Numbered from the stretch's first letter, positions 5,267-46,900 are shown. The stretch is 64,000 bases of DNA from Escherichia coli (GCF_030013205.1 NZ_CP122649.1), one strand, 5' to 3'. Numbers and translations are program-made. The notes: generated by a model not told the origin, from the sequence alone.

Positions 5267-6073
5267 TCAAATTATTTTAATTCGAGGGAGAGCATAATCC
5301 ATTGTTTTGACGGTTCCATTTTCTTTAATTATATAGTGATGCCAACTATCTGATTTTGCGATTGCATCATCATATATACTTTGTGTAATTGCTAAAAAAT
5401 CTATGTTCATCCATGAAAATATCCCTTCATCAACAAATTCTTTTGATATTAATTCATAGTGACTATTTTTTTTCACTCCAACATATAACTTATATTTTTT
5501 CTCTATATTTTCAGCCAAACTATCAAATGAAATTATTGAGAAGTCACTTCGCTGTTGCCCTCTGATTAGTGCAGTTTTCTGTGTATTATTTTCATATTCT
5601 GATCTACGACCATGAACAAGGACATACTTGAAATTAAATGGATTTCTCCCCATATGTGCCGGTTCTATAAATCCCTGCAATATATTGTTTTTAAAGTGAT
5701 TTCTGTTTGATTCATCATCAAACCAAGCCCTCCATGTGTTCATTTGCTGCAAAGCAAGATTGAAGTCTGCATGAAAAGTTGTAGAGTTGTTTTTAAAATA
5801 TTTCGACGATGGTTTTTCAATTTCAACTAATACTACATTCCAGTTATCCGAGCTTTTTGATAAATATACGAAATCAGGTTTATAATCGCTTGATAGAGGC
5901 AACTTTCTAAATACCGTACTGAAGTGAATTCCATGGTTTTGCTCGAATTCTCTTGGTATGAACATTGTATTTTCTTCAAGGTATGTTTGATAAATCTGTT
6001 CATTCTCTTCTCGATCTAGTAATTCAAGATACTCTTTCTTTTTATCGTTTATTTCTTGACCAGTCATATACAT
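5267..6073 (-). CDS. hypothetical protein, 268 aa, AT-rich orphan gene with possible PD-(D/E)xK-like motif
   Basis: Clean 807-bp ORF, about 30 percent GC, between IS1 and the transposase remnant; motif KPDFVYL...VVLVEIEK. Confidence 0.6.
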   Translation of the reverse strand: MYMTGQEINDKKKEYLELLDREENEQIYQTYLEENTMFIPREFEQNHGIHFSTVFRKLPLSSDYKPDFVYLSKSSDNWNVVLVEIEKPSSKYFKNNSTTFHADFNLALQQMNTWRAWFDDESNRNHFKNNILQGFIEPAHMGRNPFNFKYVLVHGRRSEYENNTQKTALIRGQQRSDFSIISFDSLAENIEKKYKLYVGVKKNSHYELISKEFVDEGIFSWMNIDFLAITQSIYDDAIAKSDSWHHYIIKENGTVKTMDYALPRIKII

Positions 6074-26327: not shown

Positions 26328-27729
26328 ATGGTTGATGTACTGGTGATTGGCGGTGGTAATGCCGCGCTATGCGCCGCCTTAACCGCTCGTGAGGCAGGAG
26401 CTTCCGTGCTGCTGTTAGAGGCTGCGCCTAGGGAATGGCGCGGCGGGAATTCCCAACACACGCGCAATTTACGCTGTATGCACGATGCACCACAGGATGT
26501 GCTGGTCGAGAGTTATCCCGAAGAGGAATTCTGGCAGGATCTCTGGCGTGTCACCGAAGGCAATACCAATGAAGCGTTGGCGCGCTTGGTGATTCGAACC
26601 TCTTCCCAGTGTCGTGACTGGATGCGTAAGCATGGGGTTAATTTTCAGCCTCCGCTTTCCGGCGCGCTGCATGTGGCGCGCACCAATGCCTTCTTCATGG
26701 GCGGTGGTAAAGCCCTCGTGAACGCCTATTACCGCAGTGCAGAAAAGCTGGGGGTACAGATTCGCTACAGCACGCCGGTACAGGCGCTTGAATTGCACAA
26801 CGGCAAATTCGTCGCAGCCCTGGCAGGTCACGAACGCATTGAGGCGAAAGCCTGCGTACTCGCCGCCGGCGGGTTTGAATCCAACCGTGAATGGCTACGC
26901 GACGCCTGGGGAGAGAACACTCGTGGCGAATGGCCAGCCGATAATTTCCTTATCCGCGGCACCCGCTTTAATCAGGGCGTCTTGCTCAAATTTATGATCA
27001 ATGCCGGGGCAGACATTATCGGTGATCCGTCTCAGTCCCACTGTGTGGCGATCGACGCACGGGCACCGTTGTACGACGGCGGAATTTGTACCCGCGTGGA
27101 TTGTGTCTCACTGGGTGTGGTAGTTAACCGGGATGCAGAACGCTTTTACGATGAAGGGGAAGATTTTTGGCCGAAACGCTATGCCATCTGGGGACGACTG
27201 GTTGCCCACCAACCGGGGCAGATTGGCTACTCCATTATCGACAGCAAAGCGATCGGTCACTTTATGCCGCCAGTTTTCCCCGGCGCACAGGCCAATACGC
27301 TAAGAGATCTGGCCCGCCAGTTGGGGCTGGATCCCGAACACTTTACCCACACCGTGGAACACTACAATCAGGCCTGTCAGCTGGGTCAGTTTGATCACAC
27401 TAAGCTGGACAACTGCGCGACGCAGGGCCTGACGCCACCGAAAACTCACTGGGCACGGCCTATTGATACCCCCCTACTACGGTTATGCCCTGCGACCAGG
27501 GATCACCTTTACCTATCTCGGACTGAAAGTGAATGAACACGCTGCGGTCCATTTCGCAGGCACGCCCAGCTGTAACCTTTTCGTTGCCGGTGAAATGATG
27601 GCTGGCAACGTACTGGGCAAGGGCTATACCGCCGGGGTCGGCATGTCCATTGGCACCACGTTTGGTCGCATCGCAGGTAAAGAAGCCGCGCAGGCAGCAC
27701 GCAAGGAGGCGCATCATGAAGCAGCTTGA
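26328..27729 (+). pseudogene. tcuA: FAD-dependent tricarballylate dehydrogenase TcuA, reading frame shifted near 27469-27474
   Basis: FAD-binding N-terminus VLVIGGGNAALCAALTA; C-terminal 88 aa continue in the +1 frame (track ORF 27463-27729) after a run of six C. Confidence 0.75.
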
Positions 27730-35679: not shown

Positions 35680-36510
35680 TTAGCCTCCACGGGCCTTCTG
35701 GATTGCGTATTTCAGGGTGGCCTCGTCAACAGCGCCCGGGATGAATGACGTCGTTGCAGCGTCGGGTTTTTGCATGTTCATAATAATGAACCCTGGCGTA
35801 CCGTTAATCCCGAGAGCTTCCCCCAGCTGCATGTTTCCGGAGATAACGTTCTCATAGCGGCTTTTCTCCCGATCGCCGAATGAGCTGTTGAACCCGGATT
35901 TGTTCACAACCATGTCTAAATCATTGAGTGTAAACGCACGCTGGTTGTTGAAGAATACATACGCACTGGTCATCAGATTGTTGTGATACTTACGATACGC
36001 TTCCGCACCGAATGTCTGATACACATGCAGGCCTGTCGCCGCCCCCATTGCGGAAACAGGTTTTGAGCCAGCGAAGATCGGAAATTCTTTAAAGAAGAAC
36101 TTTACATCAGTGCTTTGGCTCAACACAGATTCAACAACCGGCGCTACCTGCATACAGAAATGACACTGGTAGTCGAAAAACTCAATAACAGCGACGGCCG
36201 CATTATCAGGTCCGATATTGGGTGTCTCTTTGGTCTCGAAGAGTGCCGGTGCGTAGGGGATAATCCGCTCAAGGGAAGCGTTAGTATTTTCTTTTTCTAG
36301 CGCCTTACCTGCTTCGAGAAGATACTGGGGATTTTTTACCAGATAGGAAGCAGCTACTCGTCCTATTTCGTCGTTACCCGGTACATCGGGTTTTAGATAT
36401 TTCGACGTAATATACACAGAGCCAGCCGTCGCAATCACCGCAGAAATTAAAACAGACGCCACGGGTTTTAAATAATTTAATTTAATCATAGCCACCTTTA
36501 CGCATTTCAA
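35680..36510 (-). CDS. DsbA-like thiol:disulfide oxidoreductase (thioredoxin fold, CHFC)
   Basis: FDYQCHFCMQ active-site motif; N-terminal hydrophobic segment. Confidence 0.7.
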   Translation of the reverse strand: MKCVKVAMIKLNYLKPVASVLISAVIATAGSVYITSKYLKPDVPGNDEIGRVAASYLVKNPQYLLEAGKALEKENTNASLERIIPYAPALFETKETPNIGPDNAAVAVIEFFDYQCHFCMQVAPVVESVLSQSTDVKFFFKEFPIFAGSKPVSAMGAATGLHVYQTFGAEAYRKYHNNLMTSAYVFFNNQRAFTLNDLDMVVNKSGFNSSFGDREKSRYENVISGNMQLGEALGINGTPGFIIMNMQKPDAATTSFIPGAVDEATLKYAIQKARGG

Positions 36511-36595
36511 CTTGTTAGTTATCAGCCTGCGTTCGATTATACTGGCACGGTATATCGGAATTATTCATTAAAGAACCCTTTTTGGAGGATTTAGA

Positions 36596-37207
36596 ATGTT
36601 ACGGCAATTTTTCTTACTAACAGCCACAACGTTCTTATGTGGATGCGGTTATCATTTTGGAAATGACGTTGATGCGTACGATTTACTGCCCCGCCCGGTA
36701 GGCAGCAAGAAATTTGAAATTGTTGCTCCGGATGACAGTATTCAGTCGCGAATGTTTGCAGCCCGGTTTGCGAGCGGATTAACGGGTAAGGGGTTTAATA
36801 TTTCCAGCCATCAGCCCGAATATATTCTCAGATTCAGTTACAGCAAGACCCAGGAGAATCTGCAATACAGTGAACTACCGGTGACGGGAATAACCGGATA
36901 TGTTATCGAGAAGAAAACAACGCGAAAAGATAAGCACGGGCAAACTGAGACGGACTATGACTATAAGCCGGTCAGTGGGATCGTAGGAACAGAGACGGTA
37001 TCACAAAGACATTTCTGGCGTCGTCTTGATGTGGAAGTCTACCCTGCGGGAAAAAATGCACAGCAGGTGCTAAAAGTCAGTATGCAGAGCAATGCGCCGA
37101 TCCCATCGGACAGCGTGGCGTATTCCGCAATGATTGACGCTTTGACCGGGAATCTGGATGCCCCGCTGCGCTCCGGAAACTACGTCGCCTCGGTCCCCTG
37201 GAACTGA
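36596..37207 (+). CDS. hypothetical lipoprotein
   Basis: Signal peptide with lipobox (LTATTFLCGCG). Confidence 0.55.
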   Translation: MLRQFFLLTATTFLCGCGYHFGNDVDAYDLLPRPVGSKKFEIVAPDDSIQSRMFAARFASGLTGKGFNISSHQPEYILRFSYSKTQENLQYSELPVTGITGYVIEKKTTRKDKHGQTETDYDYKPVSGIVGTETVSQRHFWRRLDVEVYPAGKNAQQVLKVSMQSNAPIPSDSVAYSAMIDALTGNLDAPLRSGNYVASVPWN

Positions 37208-37265
37208 TGACCGGCACTGTAACGACCAACCACAAATTAACTTTTCTCACCTGCATGCCACGTCT

Positions 37266-37688
37266 TTACCGGCCTCCTCTGTTGAAATCATAGAGTCGGT
37301 ACAGATCACCGATGGTCAGCTCATCCACTTTGGTCACGAAGAGATATTCAAACTGAGCTTTCTGAATATCTGAGACTGACGCATCGTCCAGCACCGTTTG
37401 GTAAAATTTGGCATTGATACATCTTTCCGGATGCATGAACTGGTACCGCCCCTGGAGCACCACCATCAGAAAGATCAATATCAGCAGAACGAGAAGTAAC
37501 ATCTGGTTGGAAAGATCCAGTCCCAGCGACACACCAATGGTTGCCATGAAACAGAGAGTCCATCCCACCAGGGCGTAAGGAGCCTTTTGGATCTTTTGTT
37601 GGTAATAACGGAGGATCACCGGATCATTTAAATACCGCTTATCCGGCAATCCCGTTGCCCGGGTGACAATGCTGAGCCAAAGCGACAT
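37266..37688 (-). CDS. hypothetical membrane protein, 140 aa
   Basis: Track ORF with two hydrophobic segments. Confidence 0.45.
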   Translation of the reverse strand: MSLWLSIVTRATGLPDKRYLNDPVILRYYQQKIQKAPYALVGWTLCFMATIGVSLGLDLSNQMLLLVLLILIFLMVVLQGRYQFMHPERCINAKFYQTVLDDASVSDIQKAQFEYLFVTKVDELTIGDLYRLYDFNRGGR

Positions 37689-37710
37689 CTTCTAACCCCC
37701 AGCGACGCAC

Positions 37711-38103
37711 TCAGGCCAGACGTTCATAGAACGCAACAATGGGCTGGAAGATGGGTGTTTGTACCAGCTCGGGGCGAATGGCTTTCAGCTGCCTTACCGG
37801 CGCCAACTCATCCCTCGGCTTAGCGATTTCATTGCTAGGGCCTTTCTTGGTACTGTCGGTGTTCACCTTTAACCTGTCATTGCTCAGATACGACTCAAAC
37901 CGTTTCGACATCACGTCGCTGCGGGATGTCGCATCATTGAGTTTTTTTAAAACTGCGTCTTTATCTGTCTGAGCAGCAGATACCAGACTCTCACTGCTGG
38001 CCACAGTGTCGGCGTCGCAGGCCCCGAACTGGCATTTGGCAGCAAAGACGGGTTGAGAACCAACCGCCACCAGCATTAACGTTGTCAGTATTGCAGATTT
38101 CAT
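37711..38103 (-). CDS. hypothetical secreted protein
   Basis: Start at MKSAILTTLMLVAVGSQPVFA (signal peptide); the track ORF extends 14 codons upstream. Confidence 0.5.
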   Translation of the reverse strand: MKSAILTTLMLVAVGSQPVFAAKCQFGACDADTVASSESLVSAAQTDKDAVLKKLNDATSRSDVMSKRFESYLSNDRLKVNTDSTKKGPSNEIAKPRDELAPVRQLKAIRPELVQTPIFQPIVAFYERLA

Positions 38104-38128
38104 AAACACCTCTTGCAGTCGTGGAAAG

Positions 38129-38878
38129 TCACTTTTGTTCGGCACCCATGCGGGTCACCAGATTTTCCGGGCTCATCCAACCGGTGAATAGCTGAGGTTT
38201 CCCCGACAGCGTTACCATCGTTGGCGTACCCTGAAGCGGAATAGTTGAAGCTACCTGGAAATGCGATTTGATGGTATCGAGGCAGGCCTCGTCAGGCCGT
38301 CCTTCCGGAATGGTTGATGTCGGGCTCATTGCGGCATCCAGTGCATCATTAGGTTTTGCCGCACACCATATTTTTGCCATATTCCCCGCGACAACGGAGT
38401 TGAGACCTGCACGTGGAAAGGCGAGGAATTTGATTGAGATCCCGGCGTCGAGATAGGATTGAAGATCTTGATGCAATTTCTGGCAAAAGCCGCATGTAAT
38501 ATCCGTAAACACTGCCAGACGGTATTTTTCATTCGCCGACTTATATTCGATGGATTTTGTTTTAGTGGCGAACTCCCTGACACCTTTCAGAATAGCCTGC
38601 TCAGTTGTGTTCTCCACATCTTTCCCGTTCACATGAAACAAGCTCCCGGTGAAAATGTAATCGCCATCTTTGCTGACGTAGCTCACGCCCTCTCTTGAAA
38701 TGACGGTATAAATATCTTTTACCGGCGATGGTTCAATATGCTCGATAGACAAGCCCACTTCTCTTAATTTCTTCAGTGCAGCATCGGGAAGCACGTCAGT
38801 GTTCGCTGTCTGGGCATTCATACTCAAGGCCGTACAGGATGCCAGTAAAAATAATGATGCCTTGATAGTCTTATTCAT
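38129..38878 (-). CDS. dsbC: DsbC-like periplasmic disulfide isomerase (CGFC)
   Basis: Signal peptide; FTDITCGFCQKLH active-site motif. Confidence 0.75.
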   Translation of the reverse strand: MNKTIKASLFLLASCTALSMNAQTANTDVLPDAALKKLREVGLSIEHIEPSPVKDIYTVISREGVSYVSKDGDYIFTGSLFHVNGKDVENTTEQAILKGVREFATKTKSIEYKSANEKYRLAVFTDITCGFCQKLHQDLQSYLDAGISIKFLAFPRAGLNSVVAGNMAKIWCAAKPNDALDAAMSPTSTIPEGRPDEACLDTIKSHFQVASTIPLQGTPTMVTLSGKPQLFTGWMSPENLVTRMGAEQK

Positions 38879-38896
38879 TTCAGCTCCTTTAATGGA

Positions 38897-39541
38897 GTGT
38901 TAATACTATCATGCGAAAAAATCTGCCTAATTCGCTTAAGGGGAAAAATTCCCCCCTATAGCAAAAAAAATTTTGACGACGATATGGGAGAATATCCAGA
39001 ACGTAATTCCAGCGGAGATTATCTCGTGTTTATACCACCAGTAGACGATGTGAAACCTATTCCCGTTCCTGTTGAGATCTACACGCAGTGCATTACCGAT
39101 GCCTCCCGTTTTTTCGGGATTGATGCGGAGTTGGTCTTTACGCTTTTTGATAATGAGGGCGGAAAAGTCGGGACGTTCAGCCGTAATAAAAATGGCACTT
39201 ATGATATTGGGCCTATGCAGATCAATTCGTCCAACCTGCCGGAAATACGCGACCATTTTCCGTCTGTTACGTGGCGGGTGCTGGCCTATGACGCCTGTGC
39301 CAGTTTCTGGGTGGGCACCTGGTGGCTTTACCGGAAGATTGTTGACCGGAAGGGTAACGTATTTGAAGGGATTGCCGATTACAACAGCAAAACCCCTAAG
39401 GTCCGGGCGACGTATATCTTCAACTTCATGATCAAATACAATCGCCGGATTCAGCGCCGAAATGGAATGGACGAATTATATCAGTGGACGCAACCTAAGC
39501 CCCAGTACAACGGGCATATTGTAAAAAATCTTCCTGAATAA
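38897..39541 (+). CDS. lytic transglycosylase (SLT domain), transfer-associated
   Basis: NEGG...GTYDIGPMQINSSNL resembles the E-S...G-L-M-Q-I SLT motif; start codon uncertain. Confidence 0.6.
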   Translation: MLILSCEKICLIRLRGKIPPYSKKNFDDDMGEYPERNSSGDYLVFIPPVDDVKPIPVPVEIYTQCITDASRFFGIDAELVFTLFDNEGGKVGTFSRNKNGTYDIGPMQINSSNLPEIRDHFPSVTWRVLAYDACASFWVGTWWLYRKIVDRKGNVFEGIADYNSKTPKVRATYIFNFMIKYNRRIQRRNGMDELYQWTQPKPQYNGHIVKNLPE

Positions 39542-39592
39542 AATACGACCCTACTCTCCAATTTTTTATTAGTTGTTTCGTAGCCATAAACA

Positions 39593-40204
39593 ATGCGGCT
39601 CTTAGAGAATGAAAACGTCCTGAGAAAAAGGTTAACGATGCTCCAGTCAATTTATAAATTCCTGTTCAATTTATGCAGTTCACCGCAGCTGCCCAAAAAT
39701 AAAGACGTGGATGGGATATTGTCTCATGAAGAAATAACCGCTGGATTATGGGGTCCTTTGCCATCAATCCATGTTGTTCTTTTCCTGGATTTTGATGGTG
39801 TAGTCCACAAATGTCAGAATGAATCGTTCGAGAGGATGCATTTGATTGAGAGGTTACTTGACGCGAGTCCTTCAATGTTCATCGTTATATCAAGCTCATG
39901 GAGAGAGTGCGGCAGTATCACTTACCTAAAGTCACTTTTCCGCTCGCCATACAGAGACAGGGTAATTGGAGCAACCCCATCCCTGTATCTCCCCTCAGGA
40001 AGTATAGGAGTCCGTGCAGCTGAATGTGAGGACTTCGTCACCAGACACAAAGTAAAAGCCTTTATCTGCCTTGATGACGATGCGACCCTGTTTCCTCCAG
40101 AGTACCCGCACCTGTTTCGTACAGATTATTACACCGGGGTTAATGAAAAGGATCTAACGGACCTGATAGCCAGATATAATGTGCTGATGACCCGCTTTTA
40201 TTGA
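39593..40204 (+). CDS. HAD-like hydrolase family protein
   Basis: VVLFLDFDGVVH motif (DxDG); start codon uncertain. Confidence 0.5.
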   Translation: MRLLENENVLRKRLTMLQSIYKFLFNLCSSPQLPKNKDVDGILSHEEITAGLWGPLPSIHVVLFLDFDGVVHKCQNESFERMHLIERLLDASPSMFIVISSSWRECGSITYLKSLFRSPYRDRVIGATPSLYLPSGSIGVRAAECEDFVTRHKVKAFICLDDDATLFPPEYPHLFRTDYYTGVNEKDLTDLIARYNVLMTRFY

Positions 40205-40450
40205 AAAAGTAACTTTTCCACACCCTCCATACAACCAAAGCCTCTGATGCGCTATAGCCTAGGCACTAAAGCATCAGTCGATTCAGAAAAGTTACTTTTC
40301 TCTCAATTTTCATTTTGAACAGAAGAAATGCACATTTTCTTAGTGTGCCGGGTGACCTGTATTTGGTGAGGAAATTTGAATCAGGGTGATGCAAGCAAAA
40401 AAAGACCGTACTCAAAAGAGAGTACGGCCTTTATCAGCTACTACTTACTT

Positions 40451-43400
40451 TTACTTCTTATTTTCATTCAGCCAGCTTTTAGCTTTCTCAATTCTCGACT
40501 GATATGGTTCATTTGTATTATTCAGGTTTGACTTCATAAAGCTCACGAATGCATCTGCTTTATCCGGCCCAAAACGTGGATCATCGGTCAGTTGCTGACG
40601 AATCGCACGTTCTGAGTTTTGTGATGCAGTCTCATACGCCTTGATCCCATCCCCCCCCATATCCTTATACCTGCTGGTCACCTCGCTAACACCATCTGAC
40701 ATTTGCAGGTGATTTCCAACCTTGCCCAATAGCGAGCTCGGCATATTTTGTGGATTCGAAGCATCGTTTGCCAAAGATGAAGGGGTGGTCAGGATACCCA
40801 TACCTGAGAGCATGTCGTTTACAGGTTTAGCTCCGATAACGTCAAGTCCTCTGGCAACACTCTCCTGCCCCGATAAAAGCGTACTACCAATAACACCACG
40901 TTCTGTATTGGACTCAATTTTATTACCAACAAGGAGATCCGTCGTGGTTTGGGTTCGTTGCCCAACGAGCCCGCCGCCAGAACCACCTTCCCCAAGATTC
41001 GCCCTCACAACTGAGTCAAGAGAACCTGAAGCCTTGTTATGCATGTTGAAACCTTCATGGATATTCTGGAGATCGTTCATCCCCCAGCGAACGTTATAGT
41101 GACTCAGTTCGGAGAGGATATTTTGAGTATCCGCTTTCAGTTGTTCTTTCTCAGCGCCGGTTGCCATTGTACTGGCGCCATAGGTAAACACAGCTTGTGC
41201 GGCCAGTTCCGCACGTTTGTCATCCGGCTTTTTGGTAGGATCATTTGCAATCCTGCCAAAATAATTCGGGAGGTTGCCTGATATACCGCGTATCTGGTTA
41301 TCTCCGTACATATTATTCAGTTTGTCGCTGATAGTACCCATGCCCGAAGTCGCATGCTTACCGCCCGAACCAGCCTGTAACTGGTCGAAAGTTTGGTTGG
41401 CGTGCTGAACGTCCACCCCAGCCCCCTGAACTCTTCCCACAGTTTCATTCGTCACAACAGGGGTATTCTTCTCCAATGACGAGAGCACATTCTGGTTCTC
41501 TTCGCTATAGGATTTATTTACATTACCTTGATGAATGCCCTGAATATCTTCTTTGCTGATCTTGTCCACATTGTACGGAGTTACACCAGACTCAGTTTGT
41601 CCACCAACATGCTGGTTAGCATTTTGTTGGTTTTGTACCAGCCCGGCTTTTGCCTGAGCATCCATACTTTGCCCCACGTCAGCAACACGATCAGCGCTCA
41701 TTACGCTGGACGTATTTACATGTTCTGGGGTGCGATCCTGCGCCTGTGCAATCGTGTTAATACCCGAGGCATCACCAGTGATTCGGTCAAGCTGATTAGT
41801 AATCGGCAGCATCTGTTGAGCGTTACCGCCAAAGTCAGCAACCAGCCCTTTAAGCAGGCTGGAAGTTTCACGCAGATCCTGTTTATTGCTCTCAGCCGTT
41901 TCACCTCGGGCAGTATCAATCGCTATTTTTTGCTCACTAAAGTCACGTGTCGTTGCCACCAGCGCATCTGTACGTTGGAGTTGTGAACCCAACTGAGTGC
42001 TGGCCTTAAATGTGTCATTATAGGAATTGAACTTCTCCATAAAGGCATTCTCATCAAGACCATTTTTCCGTGCAAAATTACGCACATCTTCATCGCTAAA
42101 GTTTTTATTACGGATAGAATCGGAGAATCTGTCCAGGTTGATAGCCTGTCTTGAGTCGAGTGTCATGCCAGTATTGGCGCTGGCGTTCGTTGAAAGTGAC
42201 GTCGACAAGTTTTCGGCCATTGTCTGTGTGGACTGGTTCATTTTTGTTGCAGCTTCTTTGAATGCATTGGTCTGTGCAAACTGATCACTGTTTATCTGAG
42301 CAGCCGCTTTAGTCATTTGGTCAGTCAGTCCTGAGTTTTCAGTCAATTGAGTCGTAATAGCTTTACTCAAATCAGTTAAGAGACTTTCATTCCCAGAATT
42401 ACTTTTCGTGATCCCTGATCCAACTTGCCCCCCCGCTTTTATTCCTAGGCTATCCATTACTTTCTGAGCGAGACCTCCTCCTCCTCCTTTTCCAAGTTTT
42501 TCTTCACCACCAAGTCCCAAACTGCCATTGAGCAGAAGATTTGACACCACGCCAGCTAATTGCTGCGAATTAATTCCATGCTTCGCCCCTACGCTATTCG
42601 CGATGTTTGCACCGGCCTGGTCAGTAAATGATTTCAAGCTTTGCAGGTTGGAGGTAAATTGCTGGCCTGATTGCCCCGTTCGGCCAACTTCACTCATCTG
42701 GTTGAAGGCCTGCTGGAATGTGTTACTTGCTGCGCTCATGGCTGAAGAGGTAAATGCTGCCCCTTGCCCCTGGCTTGACGCGATACTTGAACCGGCATTC
42801 CACGTACCGAGTCGGAAATTACTGGAGTCCATGGCCCCGCCACCACTGAATCCTTGGCCGGTGCTTGTCAGCGCGGTACGATTCACATCCCCAAACGATG
42901 ATTTTCCGCTGTTTGGCGCATCCCACACTTTCGGCGTGAGGTGGCTGGAGTCCACTGGCGCTGGTGGTGTGACTCCTTTCATCGCGTTCATCATTGGATG
43001 AATGGATTGCGTCATCAGGAACAGCGTCAATACAGGGATAAGAGCATAGAGTGCTGATGCTACTGATAAATAAGAGCTGTATGTTTCGGCAAGCCCTGGC
43101 AAACCCATCCATGTCACCGCGTTACTCTGACTATTCAATGTGCTCCATGTATCAAGATCTGCGGTCGCCACTTTCTTCACGTAGGCATTCACCATAACCG
43201 CAGTAATAGGCCACATATTTACGAAAAGAATAAGCTGGAGATATTTTGCAGCAGCGGCCACACCATTTCCCCCGAGAGCCAAAAGCATGAGCAATGCAAA
43301 TGGGGCAACCATGTACGCAAACATCTCAAGAAACGCGATGGCTGCACCGGACAATTGCAGCCAGAGCTGCCCCTGAGATGCCATGGTATTCGTACGCTTT

Positions 43401-44440
43401 AATGATGCCTCAAACAACTGCATATCCGAGGCCAGCCCGAGTGGGGTTTTGTACTTGCTGGCACCATTACGGAGTTCATTCATGATGAACAAACTAAGCG
43501 TCGCGTCATAAGCACCAATAGCTTTGCCGTACATGCCATTCGCCGACGCCATTACATCCGTGAAGCTCGCTCCTGATGCTGCACCTCCCGCCTCATCTGG
43601 AGCAAGGATACCGTTTGTTTGCCCAATCAATGCAATCGTCTGCCGAGCCTCTGGGGTGCTCGTTACCTGTTTAACGGTCGACCAGACCTCTTCACAAGTA
43701 GCAGACTTTGAGCTATTCACACCGACAATGTTGGCAGAGGCGTTCTTCAGCGAACCTTTCATCGCCTGATTAATGCGTTCCATGCTATCCACGATATTTG
43801 CAGAGAAAATATCGTTAAAAATGGTTTCTTTCCCAGCAATTTTTGCGCTTGAGTTTTGGGTTCCCTTGAGACAGTTATAGGCCAGTGATTGTACTGTCGC
43901 GCACACATTCATCGCACCTAACCCGCTGGCTGGTTCGGGAAACGCAGAACAATAGCCCTGGCTGTCACCACCCCATTGTAAGAATTTAACGAAACGAATC
44001 ATCGGACCAAGAGTAATGTCATCATCAAGCGTCGTTGCGGCAAAGTCGATCGGCGCCAGTGGATCAAATGCCGTTTTGTAGTCTTTGAGTAAGCCCTGGC
44101 TAAGGTTCGTGGTGACAGTTCCCATCGCCGCAATAAAAATAGGAATGCCATCGACATTTCTCACTTCACCAGACTTAACTGATTCAATCGTCACATCCAC
44201 ACGAACAATTGCCATCGAAAATAGAATCAGCCCAAGAATCCATGAAAATATCGGCACTTCTGCTTTTGTCGGGTTCAACAGCCAAAGCCACGTTTTATAA
44301 AACAGGCTGGCTCCAGCCAGTACCGCTGCCGTCGTTAGAAATGCTTTTACACCGGTGTATTGTGAGAAAATCAGGGCAATCCCGTTCAGGGCGGACCACA
44401 CAAATTCAATATCGCCAACTGTATAGATGTTGTAATCCAT
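40451..44440 (-). CDS. trhG: F-type TraG-family mating-pair stabilisation protein (TrhG-like), 1329 aa
   Basis: Multi-TM TraG_N-like N-terminal half, long Q/N/S/G-rich C-terminal half; last gene of the trhF-trhH-trhG operon. Confidence 0.8.
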   Translation of the reverse strand: MDYNIYTVGDIEFVWSALNGIALIFSQYTGVKAFLTTAAVLAGASLFYKTWLWLLNPTKAEVPIFSWILGLILFSMAIVRVDVTIESVKSGEVRNVDGIPIFIAAMGTVTTNLSQGLLKDYKTAFDPLAPIDFAATTLDDDITLGPMIRFVKFLQWGGDSQGYCSAFPEPASGLGAMNVCATVQSLAYNCLKGTQNSSAKIAGKETIFNDIFSANIVDSMERINQAMKGSLKNASANIVGVNSSKSATCEEVWSTVKQVTSTPEARQTIALIGQTNGILAPDEAGGAASGASFTDVMASANGMYGKAIGAYDATLSLFIMNELRNGASKYKTPLGLASDMQLFEASLKRTNTMASQGQLWLQLSGAAIAFLEMFAYMVAPFALLMLLALGGNGVAAAAKYLQLILFVNMWPITAVMVNAYVKKVATADLDTWSTLNSQSNAVTWMGLPGLAETYSSYLSVASALYALIPVLTLFLMTQSIHPMMNAMKGVTPPAPVDSSHLTPKVWDAPNSGKSSFGDVNRTALTSTGQGFSGGGAMDSSNFRLGTWNAGSSIASSQGQGAAFTSSAMSAASNTFQQAFNQMSEVGRTGQSGQQFTSNLQSLKSFTDQAGANIANSVGAKHGINSQQLAGVVSNLLLNGSLGLGGEEKLGKGGGGGLAQKVMDSLGIKAGGQVGSGITKSNSGNESLLTDLSKAITTQLTENSGLTDQMTKAAAQINSDQFAQTNAFKEAATKMNQSTQTMAENLSTSLSTNASANTGMTLDSRQAINLDRFSDSIRNKNFSDEDVRNFARKNGLDENAFMEKFNSYNDTFKASTQLGSQLQRTDALVATTRDFSEQKIAIDTARGETAESNKQDLRETSSLLKGLVADFGGNAQQMLPITNQLDRITGDASGINTIAQAQDRTPEHVNTSSVMSADRVADVGQSMDAQAKAGLVQNQQNANQHVGGQTESGVTPYNVDKISKEDIQGIHQGNVNKSYSEENQNVLSSLEKNTPVVTNETVGRVQGAGVDVQHANQTFDQLQAGSGGKHATSGMGTISDKLNNMYGDNQIRGISGNLPNYFGRIANDPTKKPDDKRAELAAQAVFTYGASTMATGAEKEQLKADTQNILSELSHYNVRWGMNDLQNIHEGFNMHNKASGSLDSVVRANLGEGGSGGGLVGQRTQTTTDLLVGNKIESNTERGVIGSTLLSGQESVARGLDVIGAKPVNDMLSGMGILTTPSSLANDASNPQNMPSSLLGKVGNHLQMSDGVSEVTSRYKDMGGDGIKAYETASQNSERAIRQQLTDDPRFGPDKADAFVSFMKSNLNNTNEPYQSRIEKAKSWLNENKK

Positions 44441-44448
44441 ATCAGACC

Positions 44449-45870
44449 TCAGTTACCTGTGCCACGAAGACTTTCCATGAACGCTTTTCTCTTTAATCGG
44501 CGATCATCCCATGCAGAAATGACGTCAGAGCTGTTGCCCACCTGGCTACGGGTTAGCTCATAGGCAGCTTTTACCTGATTGGTCAGGTTTTCAGATAACC
44601 TAGTCAGGTCCTGCCGCCGCCCGGAAAGAGATTCGCTGGGTATATTCATAGCGCTGATCTTTGCTTCAACTTGCCGAAGCATGTTAATAACAAGGCTGGT
44701 GGCCGCTATCGCACTGATATCCTGGATATAGGCGTAGCCTTCAGGGACATCAAACGTCTGAAGTGAATCAAGAATAGTTGGGATGCCAATATAAGAAATA
44801 ATGCGTAATTCATCATCAGAGATCCTGACATCACTAATTGCCTTTGTCTGAACCTGAATAAGGAGGTCCGAGATTGTATCCTTCAAACCTTTGAAACCAC
44901 CATCCGTCACTTCAGACATAACCAGGCATTGCGACTTTCTAGCTGAAGCTGGATCGGGGGCAGGCGAACATTTGAGCATTTTTATGGAACCACCAGCCGG
45001 TGGGCCCATGATGAAATCCGATACCGTCATCGTCGACGGGCGAACTTCCATCCCCGCTTTTTCACCTTTAGCGTCCCAGTTGATAATTACAGTACCGACA
45101 AGCGACATCAGCTGCTCAGCAAGTCTGTAGCCAGATAGCTCAGTCACGCCACCGATATTCATTGACCCTTTATCGATGTCCATAAATGACATATAGAAAA
45201 GGTTTCCACTGAATTTTTCAGCAAACTCTTCAGGGTCTTTTGCTTTTACCTGGGAAGTCACGGTTTCCGGCGACTTTGTCATTGATGAACCAAAATCAGG
45301 CAACAGTCCATTAAGAGTGCCAAGCATTGAAGCAGGGCCGGAACTGACAGCATTCGCAAACTGGCTAGGTGGACCAACATTTTCAGTAAGAAACGAATAA
45401 GTAGCGTTGCATGAATCTTTGGCAAATTTATTCAGCGCCTGCAATTTATTCTGGATATCGTTAATAGTCGCAGCACAGTCAGCACAGATTGCCGATACCG
45501 CGACATTGAATGCATAAATTGCAGCCCCCTGTGCAATACCGCGAGCAACCTGAACCAGCTGATCTCCGTTAATCATACTGAAGGAACCAAGGAAAACATC
45601 GATTCCGTTGCAGCCTACGGAAGCTTTGGGAAAAGACATTGACACTAAATTGGTATTCACGTTTGTCGTGCGGTAGGAAAATGAGCCGCCAACCACTCCG
45701 GTACGGGTGGCCGTTTCAAAACTAGCTGGGCTCGTAGTCGTCATCATGCCATTGAAAATATTACGCATGGCGTTATCGGCAACGGCATTTGGCGCAATCA
45801 TCGCCGTGCAAACGGCTAACGATAAAAGTAACTTTTTTGCACAAACATGGAAATCAGCGCGCATATGCAC
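44449..45870 (-). CDS. trhH: F-type TraH-family pilus assembly protein (TrhH-like)
   Basis: Signal peptide; motifs GGSFSYRT and VGCNGIDVFLGSFSMINGDQLVQ typical of TraH. Confidence 0.8.
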   Translation of the reverse strand: MHMRADFHVCAKKLLLSLAVCTAMIAPNAVADNAMRNIFNGMMTTTSPASFETATRTGVVGGSFSYRTTNVNTNLVSMSFPKASVGCNGIDVFLGSFSMINGDQLVQVARGIAQGAAIYAFNVAVSAICADCAATINDIQNKLQALNKFAKDSCNATYSFLTENVGPPSQFANAVSSGPASMLGTLNGLLPDFGSSMTKSPETVTSQVKAKDPEEFAEKFSGNLFYMSFMDIDKGSMNIGGVTELSGYRLAEQLMSLVGTVIINWDAKGEKAGMEVRPSTMTVSDFIMGPPAGGSIKMLKCSPAPDPASARKSQCLVMSEVTDGGFKGLKDTISDLLIQVQTKAISDVRISDDELRIISYIGIPTILDSLQTFDVPEGYAYIQDISAIAATSLVINMLRQVEAKISAMNIPSESLSGRRQDLTRLSENLTNQVKAAYELTRSQVGNSSDVISAWDDRRLKRKAFMESLRGTGN

Positions 45871-46900
45871 CTCCTAAACTTCCACCCACATTCAGATAGT
45901 TCACTGGGTCCGCCGTTGGCATATCGTACCCTTCCAGTTTCTTATCCATTATTCGTTGCAATAAGAACGGGTCAGAGTCCATTTCTGATTTATTCACAGT
46001 AATTACGCCATCCTCGCCAATGGTATATTGGCGCTTAATATCTAAAGTGGACTGGAAAGAGGCATCATCAATCAGCTTCATGCCTTTTGCAGCCAGAATA
46101 ATAGTATTCTTGAGCTCCTCAGCAGTGATCATGCCTTCGCTTATTCGTTGCGCTGATGACCCATCTTTTGAGACAAGGAAAATAGTTGGAACTTCACGGA
46201 TTTTAAATTGATCAATAATCTGCGCATTAGGTACAGAGAAATCCTGGAACAACCCATTCTGTAGTGGTCTGCCGTCCATGCTGACAGGAAGAATGTCGAC
46301 AGAATAGTAATTCTCCATAAACTGGAGTATTTGACTTTCTTCGTGGCAGAACTGACAAGTACTCTGGAAAAAGAAAAACAGCCCGGATTTAGTGAAAATA
46401 TCTTTCATAACCGACTGCTGATTTTTCTCGACCACCGTACGATGTGCATCGAGCGCTACCTTTTCAACCGGTTGCCTGCGTTTTTCAGACATCATTGGAT
46501 TTTTAAGGAAATAATCTTTCGATTTATCCGAAAACCGCGTACCGATATCCAGCATTAAACGTTGTGCTGTATAAAATCTCGATAAATTTTCAGGGGTCGG
46601 ATTATCCATAGCCTTGGTCAAAAGCTGAGGCATATTGTCCTTTAGCCACTTTGAATTAAGCTCAATCTTTTCTTCTTGTTCTGGCTGGGTCGAAGATGCA
46701 ACAGGAGGCTTGGTCTCTGTAATTTCTTCCTCAGTTTTCCTTGTCGGGTCGTCATACCAGAAAAAGCCTTTCTTGAAGGCCTGTCCTGATACAAAGGGAG
46801 TGTCTTTGATAAGGGCCTGCTCTTCATTTGCATGGACCCCAGTAATAAACAAAGACAGCAGCACTAACATCTTTGAAGGTATTAACGTTAATCGAGTCAT
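45854..46900 (-). CDS. trhF: F-type TraF/TrbB-like thioredoxin-fold pilus assembly protein (TrhF-like, CQFC)
   Basis: Signal peptide; C-terminal thioredoxin-like region with CQFC; overlaps trhH start. Confidence 0.75.
   Translation of the reverse strand: MTRLTLIPSKMLVLLSLFITGVHANEEQALIKDTPFVSGQAFKKGFFWYDDPTRKTEEEITETKPPVASSTQPEQEEKIELNSKWLKDNMPQLLTKAMDNPTPENLSRFYTAQRLMLDIGTRFSDKSKDYFLKNPMMSEKRRQPVEKVALDAHRTVVEKNQQSVMKDIFTKSGLFFFFQSTCQFCHEESQILQFMENYYSVDILPVSMDGRPLQNGLFQDFSVPNAQIIDQFKIREVPTIFLVSKDGSSAQRISEGMITAEELKNTIILAAKGMKLIDDASFQSTLDIKRQYTIGEDGVITVNKSEMDSDPFLLQRIMDKKLEGYDMPTADPVNYLNVGGSLGGAYAR

What the first reader, a model, noticed from the sequence alone, without database searches (positions are those of the whole stretch)
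35680..46900. Three CXXC thioredoxin-fold proteins in and beside the mating-pair genes
A DsbA-like (CHFC), a DsbC-like (CGFC) and a TraF/TrbB-like (CQFC) protein are encoded within 11 kb. This is a plasmid-borne disulfide-bond formation and isomerisation set presumably serving pilus and mating-pair proteins, more elaborate than in classical F.
Basis: partly seen in the sequence, partly recalled or inferred. Interest (0 to 1): 0.3.

Follow-up and report, generated by a model that had tools for sequence, protein, structure and literature searches.

The report
Known IncHI1 plasmid disulfide-enzyme genes
The three thioredoxin-fold genes are real, but they are the already described trhF, dsbC and "dsbA" (R0135) genes of R27-type IncHI1 conjugative plasmids; the only refinement is that the "DsbA-like" one resembles trimeric isomerase-type enzymes (BcfH/ScsC), not the classical oxidase DsbA.

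Summary
Three minus-strand genes at 35680-36489, 38129-38878 and 45854-46900 encode thioredoxin-fold proteins with CHFC, CGFC and CQFC at the canonical active-site position.

The window is the Tra1 side of an IncHI1 plasmid (100% identical to E. coli plasmid NZ_CP122645.1). All three proteins carry the same RefSeq protein accessions as in the prototype plasmid R27. They are:
- TrhF, a TraF-family pilus-assembly protein in the trhF-trhH-trhG operon.
- DsbC(R27), a full-length DsbC homologue.
- R0135, annotated "dsbA".

TrhF, DsbC(R27) and a fourth enzyme outside the window, HtdT, were studied experimentally by Elton et al. 2005. Loss of R27 dsbC lowers transfer about 10,000-fold, but only in dsbC-null hosts.

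R0135 is the one protein of unknown function. It has an N-terminal helical extension. Its best sequence and fold match is the trimeric bifunctional BcfH, followed by the ScsC isomerases; E. coli DsbA is not among the matches. It is conserved next to dsbC in IncHI1, IncHI2 and IncHI1B plasmids, is under purifying selection, and is co-induced with the tra genes.

The "DsbA = bond formation" part is not supported, and the set is in fact four proteins. This is already known, and interest is low.

The parts
45854..46900 (-). trhF (R27 R0126). A 348-aa TraF-family pilus-assembly protein with a TrbB-type CQFC active site (46346-46357), a signal peptide, and a C-terminal extension of about 70 aa.
   Evidence: Pfam TraF E 2.9e-50. 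TIGR02740 TraF-like scores 353.8 bits against a cut-off of 232. The CXXC aligns with TrbB CPYC. Same protein accession as in R27, WP_000197598.1.
44449..45864 (-). trhH. TraH homologue with 8 Cys; a likely client and binding partner of TrhF.
   Evidence: Pfam TraH E 2.7e-59. Cys count. It overlaps trhF by 11 bp.
40451..44440 (-). trhG. TraG_N mating-pair protein; last gene of the trhF-trhH-trhG operon.
   Evidence: Pfam TraG_N E 6.4e-30. A terminator-like hairpin with a 13-bp stem lies at 40432-40401, just after the stop codon.
39026..39541 (+). Lytic transglycosylase (R27 R0130, bfpH/trbN-like), transcribed divergently from dsbC.
   Evidence: Pfam SLT E 1e-3. NCBIfam TrbN E 4.9e-21. Induced at 25 C along with the tra genes (PMC7366339).
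38129..38878 (-). dsbC(R27). A 249-aa full-length DsbC homologue with CGFC at 38483-38494, a signal peptide, an N-terminal dimerisation domain and a second Cys pair (C172, C199).
   Evidence: DsbC_N plus Thioredoxin_2. PDB E. coli DsbC 1EEJ, E 1.4e-37 over residues 32-241. WP_001044069.1, identical to R27.
37711..38103 (-). R0132-like small secreted protein with a CX4C just after its signal peptide. It lies 25 bp downstream of dsbC and is probably co-transcribed.
   Evidence: Sequence and Cys positions. 58% identical between IncHI1 and IncHI2. Only weak similarity in IncHI1B.
37266..37688 (-). R0133-like small membrane protein, third gene on the dsbC strand. No family match.
   Evidence: Not conserved in the IncHI1B locus.
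36596..37207 (+). Lipoprotein gene on the opposite strand. It separates the dsbC unit from the DsbA-family gene in IncHI1.
   Evidence: RefSeq annotation. Lipobox-like LCGC. No such annotated lipoprotein lies between dsbC and the DsbA-family gene in the IncHI1B locus.
35680..36489 (-). R0135 ('dsbA'). A 269-aa DsbA-family protein of the BcfH/ScsC type. Layout: N-terminal hydrophobic signal or anchor, two stem helices (residues 39-83), then the DsbA catalytic domain with CHFC (36154-36165) and a GTP loop.
   Evidence: Pfam DSBA E 2e-23 and ScsC_N E 3.7e-4. PDB 7JVE (BcfH) E 1.5e-35. AF2 model with pLDDT 87.6, whose best Foldseek matches are BcfH and then ScsC. WP_000593841.1, identical to R27.

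Best explanation
The region is the distal part of transfer region Tra1 of an R27-type IncHI1 plasmid. It encodes three of the plasmid's four periplasmic thioredoxin-fold proteins. Together with the host Dsb system, they most likely keep the cysteine-rich parts of the F-type type IV secretion machine correctly disulfide-bonded. The candidate clients are TrhN (32 Cys), TrhU (16) and TrhH (8).

- TrhF is primarily a structural pilus-assembly factor of the TraF family, encoded with its likely partner TrhH. It has kept the TrbB-type CXXC that F TraF has lost.
- DsbC(R27) is a dimeric DsbC-type disulfide isomerase that backs up the host DsbC. This has been shown experimentally by others.
- R0135 is inferred to be an oligomeric, probably trimeric, BcfH/ScsC-type enzyme. 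That would make it an isomerase or a bifunctional oxidase/isomerase rather than a DsbA-type oxidase. It is expressed from its own promoter and induced together with the tra genes.

Shown here: gene identities, domain architectures, conservation and co-location. Inferred: the client proteins, the oligomeric state of R0135, and the direction of its redox activity.
For: Identity:
- The window is 100% identical to an IncHI1 plasmid.
- All three proteins have the same WP accessions as in R27.

Families:
-.

R0135:
- Best PDB sequence match is BcfH, E 1.5e-35, aligned over residues 39-268 including the N-terminal stem.
- The AF2 model (pLDDT 87.6) has two helices at 39-83 ahead of the catalytic domain.
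- Foldseek ranks BcfH first, then P. mirabilis and C. crescentus ScsC, then Salmonella ScsC, Francisella DsbA1 and Wolbachia DsbA2.
- In a 26-sequence family alignment, C109, C112 and G230-T231-P232 are invariant, and 23 of 26 members match Pfam ScsC_N.
- DsbA-like proteins with such N-terminal extensions are oligomeric isomerases (bioRxiv 10.1101/412205). BcfH is trimeric (PMC11653150) and, by the title of the paper that describes it, has both oxidase and isomerase activity (reference list of PMC11653150).

Conservation:
- The SLT - dsbC - ... - dsbA order next to trhG is kept in IncHI2 (75% aa identity) and in IncHI1B (42% and 49% aa identity).
- Between IncHI1 and IncHI2, synonymous sites are saturated (pS 0.74-0.77) while pN is 0.09-0.14, close to the value for trhH.

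Regulation and genetics from the literature:
- R0135 and R0130 are induced at 25 C and in an htdA mutant, together with the tra genes (PMC7366339).
- Deleting R27 dsbC lowers transfer 10,000-fold in a dsbC-null host (PMC10838148).
- Rts1 Orf206, a distant R0135 homologue, is needed for mating-pair formation.

Clients:
Against: - No experiment addresses R0135. PMC10838148 states that its function is unknown.
- Its ScsC_N match is below Pfam's cut-off (20.6 bits against 25.8), and oligomerisation cannot be tested here.
- BcfH also has oxidase activity, so an oxidase role is not excluded.
- From my memory of the Elton 2005 abstract (the paper is not in the library), overproduced TrhF(R27) did not rescue the DTT hypersensitivity of a dsbA host. 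Its CXXC may therefore have no general redox activity.
- The plasmid enzymes are largely redundant with host DsbC in E. coli, so their contribution may depend on host or temperature.
Confidence: 0.8

Rival explanations
1. R0135 is a true DsbA-type oxidase, recycled by host DsbB, that forms disulfides de novo in Trh proteins. DsbC(R27) and TrhF then isomerise them, giving a complete plasmid-borne formation-plus-isomerisation pathway.
For: - Pfam DSBA domain, E 2e-23.
- The closest relative, BcfH, has thiol oxidase activity as well as isomerase activity (title of the BcfH paper, cited in PMC11653150).
- F-pilus synthesis requires host DsbA. This is from my memory of the Elton 2005 abstract and was not checked here.
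Against: - The N-terminal helical extension is typical of oligomeric isomerases.
- The loop is Thr-Pro, as in BcfH and Wolbachia DsbA2, rather than the Val-Pro of E. coli DsbA.
- The active site is CHFC, not CPHC.
- E. coli DsbA is not matched at E<=0.001 in the PDB search and is absent from the top 50 fold matches.
- No DsbB-like gene is annotated next to it.
Confidence: 0.2
2. R0135 is an ScsC-like envelope-stress (copper or oxidative stress) cargo gene that merely sits beside the transfer genes and has no role in conjugation.
For: - Sequence and fold similarity to ScsC copper-resistance proteins.
- It has its own transcription unit, separated from dsbC by an opposite-strand lipoprotein gene and lying next to umuDC-type genes.
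Against: - No scsA, scsB or scsD genes are nearby.
- Its position next to dsbC/SLT/trhG is conserved across IncHI1, IncHI2 and IncHI1B, down to 42% identity.
- It is co-induced with the tra genes under every condition that promotes R27 transfer (PMC7366339).
- Related genes sit directly after finO, at the end of the tra operon, in IncFII/FIB plasmids.
- The distant homologue Orf206 of Rts1 is required for mating-pair formation.
Confidence: 0.08
3. TrhF acts only as a structural or chaperone-type pilus-assembly protein. Its CQFC is an evolutionary remnant with no catalytic role.
For: - F TraF works without any CXXC (PMC11315126).
- From my memory of the Elton 2005 abstract, TrhF(R27) gave no rescue in the DTT and dsbA assays.
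Against: - CQFC and the VP loop are identical in IncHI1 and IncHI2 despite saturated synonymous divergence.
- PMC11315126 notes that systems with a non-redox-active TraF as their only such protein are not observed, and that R27, which has no TrbB, has a redox-active TraF.
Confidence: 0.35

Closest known systems
R27 (IncHI1) trhF, dsbC and ORF R0135 'dsbA' (Sherburne 2000 sequence; Elton et al. 2005, J Bacteriol 187:8267)
   Same: The proteins are identical, with the same RefSeq WP accessions, and gene order is the same from mobI to umuDC.
   Different: Nothing in these genes. The host plasmid (216 kb, from a pig ETEC) differs from R27 only elsewhere, for example in its resistance region.
F plasmid TraF and TrbB
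   Same: TrhF has the TraF family architecture and the traF-traH-traG context. Its thioredoxin domain and CXXC align with TrbB CPYC.
   Different: F splits the roles between a Cys-less TraF and a short, monomeric isomerase, TrbB. TrhF combines the TraF body with a CXXC and adds a C-terminal tail of about 70 aa. Identity is only 21% to TraF and 26% to TrbB.
E. coli DsbC (PDB 1EEJ)
   Same: Full-length similarity, E 1.4e-37. Shared features: N-terminal dimerisation domain, FTDITCG(F/Y)C active site, GTP loop and a second Cys pair.
   Different: It is a plasmid paralogue. It scores 179.6 bits against the 215-bit equivalog cut-off, and the active site is CGFC rather than CGYC.
Salmonella BcfH (PDB 7JVE), a trimeric bifunctional DsbA-like enzyme of the bcf fimbrial operon
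   Same: It is the best sequence match (E 1.5e-35; 32% identity in alignment A1) and the best fold match for R0135. The match includes the N-terminal stem helices, the FFDYQC..C active site and the GTP loop.
   Different: The active-site dipeptide is HF rather than SW. The context is a conjugative plasmid rather than a chaperone-usher fimbrial operon. The oligomeric state and activities of R0135 are untested.
ScsC (P. mirabilis, C. crescentus), Wolbachia alpha-DsbA2 and Legionella DsbA2: N-terminally extended DsbA-like isomerases
   Same: The same architecture, a helical oligomerisation stem followed by a DsbA domain. Legionella DsbA2 is needed for assembly of a type IV secretion system.
   Different: Identity is only 20-25%. 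There is no ScsB partner or copper-resistance context, and the secretion system served is an F-type conjugative one.
IncA/C DsbP (PDB 4ML1), SXT S054 and Rts1 Orf206/Orf212
   Same: These are plasmid- or ICE-borne Dsb enzymes attached to MOBH/MPF_F transfer systems. HtdT of this plasmid matches DsbP at E 7.7e-12. Orf206 is reported as a distant R0135 homologue required for mating-pair formation.
   Different: DsbP, S054 and HtdT form a different, DsbC-like lineage. S054 and Orf206 are required even in dsbC-positive hosts, whereas R27 dsbC is redundant with host dsbC.

Membership tests
TraF family (F-type T4SS pilus assembly; Pfam PF13728 / TIGR02740 TraF-like) | Full-length match to the family model above the curated cut-off | tested here: met
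   Pfam TraF scores 171.6 bits (cut-off 23), covering 1-223 of 224 model positions. TIGR02740 scores 353.8 bits (cut-off 232.25).
TraF family (F-type T4SS pilus assembly; Pfam PF13728 / TIGR02740 TraF-like) | Encoded together with traH and traG homologues | tested here: met
   trhF overlaps trhH, which is followed by trhG.
F-plasmid TraF proper (TIGR02739 equivalog) and TrbB proper (TIGR02738 equivalog) | Score above the equivalog cut-off | tested here: not met
   TraF scores 109.6 bits against 204.6. TrbB scores 56.2 bits against 132. TrhF is a sister type, not an orthologue of either.
Thioredoxin-fold thiol-disulfide oxidoreductase (all three proteins) | CXXC at the start of helix alpha-1, plus a conserved proline loop opposite it | tested here: met
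   Motifs confirmed. They align with TrbB CPYC, with the CGYC of the DsbC-family structure 4npb and with BcfH CSWC. The GTP/VP loops are conserved. For R0135, the model places C109 at the start of helix 110-125.
Thioredoxin-fold thiol-disulfide oxidoreductase (all three proteins) | Redox activity of the CXXC | not testable with these tools
   The literature reports a conjugation phenotype for R27 dsbC in dsbC-null hosts (PMC10838148). There are no data for R0135.
DsbC (dimeric periplasmic disulfide isomerase) | N-terminal DsbC_N dimerisation domain followed by a C-terminal thioredoxin domain, matching over the full length | tested here: met
   DsbC_N scores 54.4 bits (cut-off 25) and Thioredoxin_2 scores 59.8 bits (cut-off 27). 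1EEJ matches residues 32-241 at E 1.4e-37.
DsbC (dimeric periplasmic disulfide isomerase) | Second (structural) cysteine pair in the catalytic domain | tested here: met
   C172 and C199 align with the two Cys of the solved DsbC-family protein 4npb.
DsbC (dimeric periplasmic disulfide isomerase) | Orthologue of chromosomal DsbC (NCBIfam equivalog cut-off) | tested here: not met
   179.6 bits against a 215-bit cut-off. It is a plasmid paralogue.
Classical DsbA oxidase (E. coli DsbA type) | Monomeric DsbA domain with no oligomerisation extension | tested here: not met
   [quoted passage not shown] This region is homologous to the BcfH/ScsC stem.
Classical DsbA oxidase (E. coli DsbA type) | CPHC active site, Val-cisPro loop, and close similarity to EcDsbA | tested here: not met
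   The active site is CHFC and the loop is Thr-Pro; the Val-cisPro loop of EcDsbA is described in PMC11653150. EcDsbA is not among the PDB sequence matches at E<=0.001 or the top 50 fold matches. BLASTP aligns only 47 residues.
BcfH/ScsC-type N-terminally extended (trimeric) DsbA-like enzymes | DsbA catalytic domain with CXXC and a Thr-Pro loop | tested here: met
   Pfam DSBA scores 83.6 bits. C109, C112, T231 and P232 are invariant in 26 homologues.
BcfH/ScsC-type N-terminally extended (trimeric) DsbA-like enzymes | ScsC_N-type helical N-terminal stem | tested here: inconclusive
   PF18312 scores 20.6 bits, below the 25.8 cut-off, in this protein. However, 23 of 26 family members match at E<0.01, the BcfH alignment starts at residue 39, and the model shows the helices.
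BcfH/ScsC-type N-terminally extended (trimeric) DsbA-like enzymes | Homo-trimerisation and isomerase activity that depends on the N-terminus | not testable with these tools
   Only monomer prediction is available. It would need SEC-MALS/AUC and scrambled-RNase assays.
Scs copper-sensitivity suppressor system | scsA, scsB and scsD neighbours (ScsB as the reductant of ScsC) | tested here: not met
   The neighbours are a lipoprotein gene, umuDC-type genes and dsbC. No ScsB or DsbD-like gene is annotated.

The most novel reading that the evidence does not exclude
R0135 and its relatives (IncHI1, IncHI2 and IncHI1B, plus the genes found directly after finO in IncFII/FIB plasmids) may form a so-far uncharacterised class. 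These would be BcfH/ScsC-like trimeric oxidoreductases dedicated to F-type conjugative secretion machines. They would let the plasmids assemble Cys-rich TraN/TraU-type proteins independently of the host Dsb repertoire, for example at the low temperatures at which IncHI plasmids transfer, or in hosts with poor DsbC/DsbD function.
Probability: 0.35. Interest if true: 0.35.

Novelty: already known. Interest (0 to 1): 0.15.

Why it matters
IncHI plasmids are major carriers of multidrug resistance; this window also carries tet(B), blaTEM-1, sul3, cmlA1 and aadA genes. Their transfer depends on correctly disulfide-bonded envelope proteins. It is already established that these plasmids bring their own Dsb enzymes, so confirming the three genes adds nothing new.

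The one useful residue concerns R0135, the protein still described in 2024 as of unknown function. It can now be placed with the trimeric BcfH/ScsC-type enzymes rather than with DsbA. That placement predicts isomerase or bifunctional activity and a dependence on DsbD rather than DsbB, and it suggests specific knock-out combinations to test. Anti-conjugation strategies that target only host DsbA would need to take such plasmid-borne redundancy into account.

Tried and rejected
- I tried to read the primary papers: Elton 2005 (DOI and PMC1316991), Hemmis & Schildbach 2013 (PMC3743251), Premkumar 2014 (PMC3908391) and Hemmis 2011 (PMC3165698). None is held. Their content is therefore cited only through papers that quote them, or is marked as memory.
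- I considered the small membrane protein R0133 (2 Cys) and the secreted CX4C protein R0132 as a plasmid-borne redox partner or conserved module between dsbC and dsbA. R0133 has no counterpart in the IncHI1B locus (E 34), R0132 has only a weak one (E 0.001 over 61 aa), and neither matches any family. The idea was dropped.
- The sigma-70 promoter scan was uninformative: 14 sites found against 17.9 expected. Only the hairpin after trhG was usable.
- dN/dS between IncHI1 and IncHI2 could not be computed properly because synonymous sites are saturated. I report pN and pS instead.
- NCBIfam has no model for R0135 or HtdT, and Pfam has none for HtdT.
- I did not model TrhF. There is no PDB sequence match, and its fold assignment rests on the TraF, TrbB and ResA profile matches.
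- Whether the N-terminus of R0135 is a cleaved signal peptide (possible ATA|G site after residue 22) or a membrane anchor could not be decided without a dedicated predictor.

Full report
**What is there.**
- Between 35680 and 46900, all relevant genes but two lie on the minus strand.
- The order, read 5'->3' on the minus strand, is: trhF (46900-45854), trhH (45864-44449), trhG (44440-40451), then a terminator-like hairpin with a 13-bp stem at 40432-40401.
- Next come two plus-strand genes: a HAD-domain protein and a lytic transglycosylase (39026-39541).
- After these come the DsbC-like gene (38878-38129) and two small ORFs that follow it at 25- and 22-bp spacings.
- A plus-strand lipoprotein gene (36596-37207) follows, and finally the DsbA-family gene (36489-35680). 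Its end converges on a umuDC-type operon.

**Are they real thioredoxin-fold enzymes?** Yes.
- Pfam gives DSBA at E 2e-23, DsbC_N at 9.5e-15 with Thioredoxin_2 at 3.6e-16, and TraF at 2.9e-50.
- NCBIfam places the 348-aa protein in TIGR02740 'TraF-like', at 353.8 bits against a 232-bit cut-off. Weaker matches go to F TraF, TrbB and ResA.
- In an alignment with the F-plasmid proteins, CQFC lines up with the CPYC of TrbB and with the Cys-less DPID of F TraF. The loop proline is conserved in all of them.
- The DsbC-like protein matches E. coli DsbC (1EEJ) over its whole length at E 1.4e-37. It shares the FTDITCG.C block, the GTP loop and the second cysteine pair.
- Three such genes within 11 kb is not a chance pattern.

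**Where the window comes from.**
- The 12.5-kb region is 100% identical to E. coli ETEC4079 plasmid NZ_CP122645.1, and at least 99% identical to 200 plasmid records.
- The typing is MOBH/MPF_F, and the gene names are IncHI-type.
- In the prototype IncHI1 plasmid R27, the same genes appear in the same order with the same RefSeq protein accessions: WP_000197598.1, WP_001044069.1 and WP_000593841.1.
- The three proteins are therefore R27 TrhF (R0126), DsbC(R27) and R0135 ('dsbA, outer membrane protein' in the R27 annotation; PMC7366339).

**What is already known.**
- Elton et al. 2005 (J Bacteriol 187:8267) dealt with the thioredoxin-fold proteins of F (TraF, TrbB) and of R27 (TrhF, DsbC, HtdT). 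The paper is not in the library, so I rely on papers that cite it.
- PMC10838148 reports that deleting R27 dsbC lowered transfer 10,000-fold, but only in dsbC-null hosts. [quoted passage not shown] - PMC7366339 lists trhF as a pilus-assembly gene of the F operon. It shows that R0135 and the transglycosylase R0130 are induced at 25 C and in an htdA mutant, that is, under all conditions that promote transfer.
- From my memory of the Elton abstract, which I could not verify here: overproduced DsbC(R27) and HtdT, but not TrhF, relieved the DTT hypersensitivity of mating.

**The fourth member.**
- HtdT lies outside the window, at 115837-116589 of the same plasmid, between trhB and trhV. Its protein is identical to that of R27.
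- Its nearest solved relative is the IncA/C isomerase DsbP, at E 7.7e-12.
- The plasmid therefore encodes four CXXC thioredoxin-fold proteins, not three.

**The one point that goes beyond the literature I could read: what kind of 'DsbA' is R0135?**
- Its best match among solved structures is not DsbA but Salmonella BcfH (7JVE), at E 1.5e-35. The alignment runs from residue 39 to the end and so includes the region N-terminal to the catalytic domain.
- The next matches are Francisella DsbA1, the ScsC proteins, an S. pomeroyi Com1-like '27 kDa outer membrane protein' and Wolbachia DsbA2.
- E. coli DsbA is not matched at E<=0.001.
- An AlphaFold model built from 26 homologues (pLDDT 87.6) shows three parts: a hydrophobic N-terminal helix, two helices at 39-52 and 54-83, and then the DsbA domain.
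- Foldseek ranks BcfH first, then the P. mirabilis and C. crescentus ScsC trimers.
- In the family alignment, the two cysteines, FFDY and the Gly-Thr-Pro loop are invariant. 23 of 26 members match Pfam ScsC_N, although R0135 itself scores below the cut-off (20.6 against 25.8 bits).
- According to bioRxiv 10.1101/412205 and PMC11653150, DsbA-like proteins with such helical N-terminal extensions oligomerise through them. They act as disulfide isomerases (PmScsC, CcScsC, WpDsbA2, LpDsbA2). BcfH, by the title of the paper that describes it, is both oxidase and isomerase.
- Legionella DsbA2 is needed to assemble the Dot/Icm type IV system.
- My inference is that R0135 is an oligomeric isomerase or bifunctional enzyme, not the oxidase arm of a DsbA/DsbC pair.

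**Is R0135 part of the transfer system or a passenger?**
- tblastn finds relatives in 3121 plasmid records, 2425 of them typed as conjugative.
- The order trhG ... SLT - dsbC - small ORFs - dsbA is kept in IncHI2 (75% aa identity).
- It is also kept in Klebsiella IncHI1B/FIB plasmids, at 42% identity for the DsbA-family protein and 49% for DsbC. There the four genes are co-linear on one strand.
- Between IncHI1 and IncHI2, synonymous sites are saturated (pS about 0.75). pN is 0.14 for R0135, 0.09 for DsbC and 0.09 for TrhF, against 0.08 for trhH. All three genes are thus under purifying selection comparable to that on a core transfer gene.
- More distant relatives (30-33% identity) sit directly after finO, at the end of the tra operon, in IncFII/FIB plasmids of Enterobacter, Klebsiella and Yersinia.
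- Together with the co-regulation data, this argues for a conjugation-linked role and against a stray ScsC-type copper-stress gene. No scsA, scsB or scsD gene is present.

**Likely clients.**
- The Trh proteins exposed to the periplasm are rich in cysteine: TrhN 32, TrhU 16, TrhH 8, TrhG 4.
- This parallels F, where TraN, TraU and TraH have 22, 11 and 6 cysteines and are the presumed TrbB clients (PMC11315126).
- The client assignment is an inference; nothing here tests it.

**Verdict.**
It is imprecise in treating the DsbA-family protein as a bond-forming oxidase, and it misses HtdT.
- Novelty: already known. Interest: low.
- The residual open question is the function of R0135. It is modest but now sharply testable: trimer or monomer, DsbD- or DsbB-dependent, and the phenotype of combined deletions at 25 C.

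Noticed in passing
window 26328-27536, around 27475: tcuA (tricarballylate dehydrogenase) appears to be frameshifted. The ORF is 402 aa against 467 aa in R27, with 2 gaps relative to R27 tcuA. The window also differs from NZ_CP122645.1 by one base in a poly-C run (C6 against C7) at 27475, which explains the +1 offset of record coordinates downstream.
   Followed up: partly
R27 locus L004 32115-32972 (minus); same gene at NZ_CP122645.1 115837-116589: The RefSeq HtdT (250 aa) starts without a signal peptide. A 285-aa ORF from an upstream TTG begins MKKLLLSLLISITSA..., a typical signal peptide, so the annotated start is probably too short.
   Followed up: partly
window 45854-46900; NZ_CP122645.1 137372-137884: There is a naming collision in the PGAP annotation. 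The S26 peptidase (TrhP in the R27 literature) is labelled 'IncHI-type conjugal transfer protein TrhF', while the real TraF-like TrhF is labelled only 'thioredoxin family protein'.
   Followed up: yes
window 37711-38103 (minus): A small secreted protein (R0132) has a CX4C pair immediately after its signal peptide. It lies 25 bp downstream of dsbC and is probably co-transcribed. It is 58% identical in IncHI2 and matches no family. It could be a client or an accessory of the Dsb enzymes.
   Followed up: partly
L006 7896-8687; L012 6007-6795; L013 5896-6687: In IncFII/FIB plasmids of Enterobacter, Klebsiella and a Yersinia pestis pMT cointegrate, a DsbA-family gene related to R0135 (29-33% identity) sits directly after finO at the distal end of the F-type tra operon. 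It is followed by a phospholipase D family gene and repA.
   Followed up: partly
window 40401-40432 (minus): A strong terminator-like hairpin (13-bp stem followed by a T run) lies 19 bp after the trhG stop codon. It marks the end of the trhF-trhH-trhG operon, so dsbC and R0135 are in separate transcription units.
   Followed up: no
window 39638-40204 (plus): A HAD_SAK_2 domain protein (the 'Swiss Army Knife' RNA-repair HAD domain, E 2.2e-22) lies between trhG and the transglycosylase. It is R0129 in R27, is induced at 25 C (PMC7366339), and is conserved in IncHI2.
   Followed up: no
window 1-24100: A multidrug-resistance region bounded and interrupted by IS26 copies. It carries tet(B)/tetR, blaTEM-1, a mer remnant (merD, merE), sul3, qacL, aadA1, cmlA1, aadA2 and estX, plus a 'Shedu immune nuclease family' gene at 5267-6067. 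The 65% GC peak at 10-12 kb falls inside this region.
   Followed up: no
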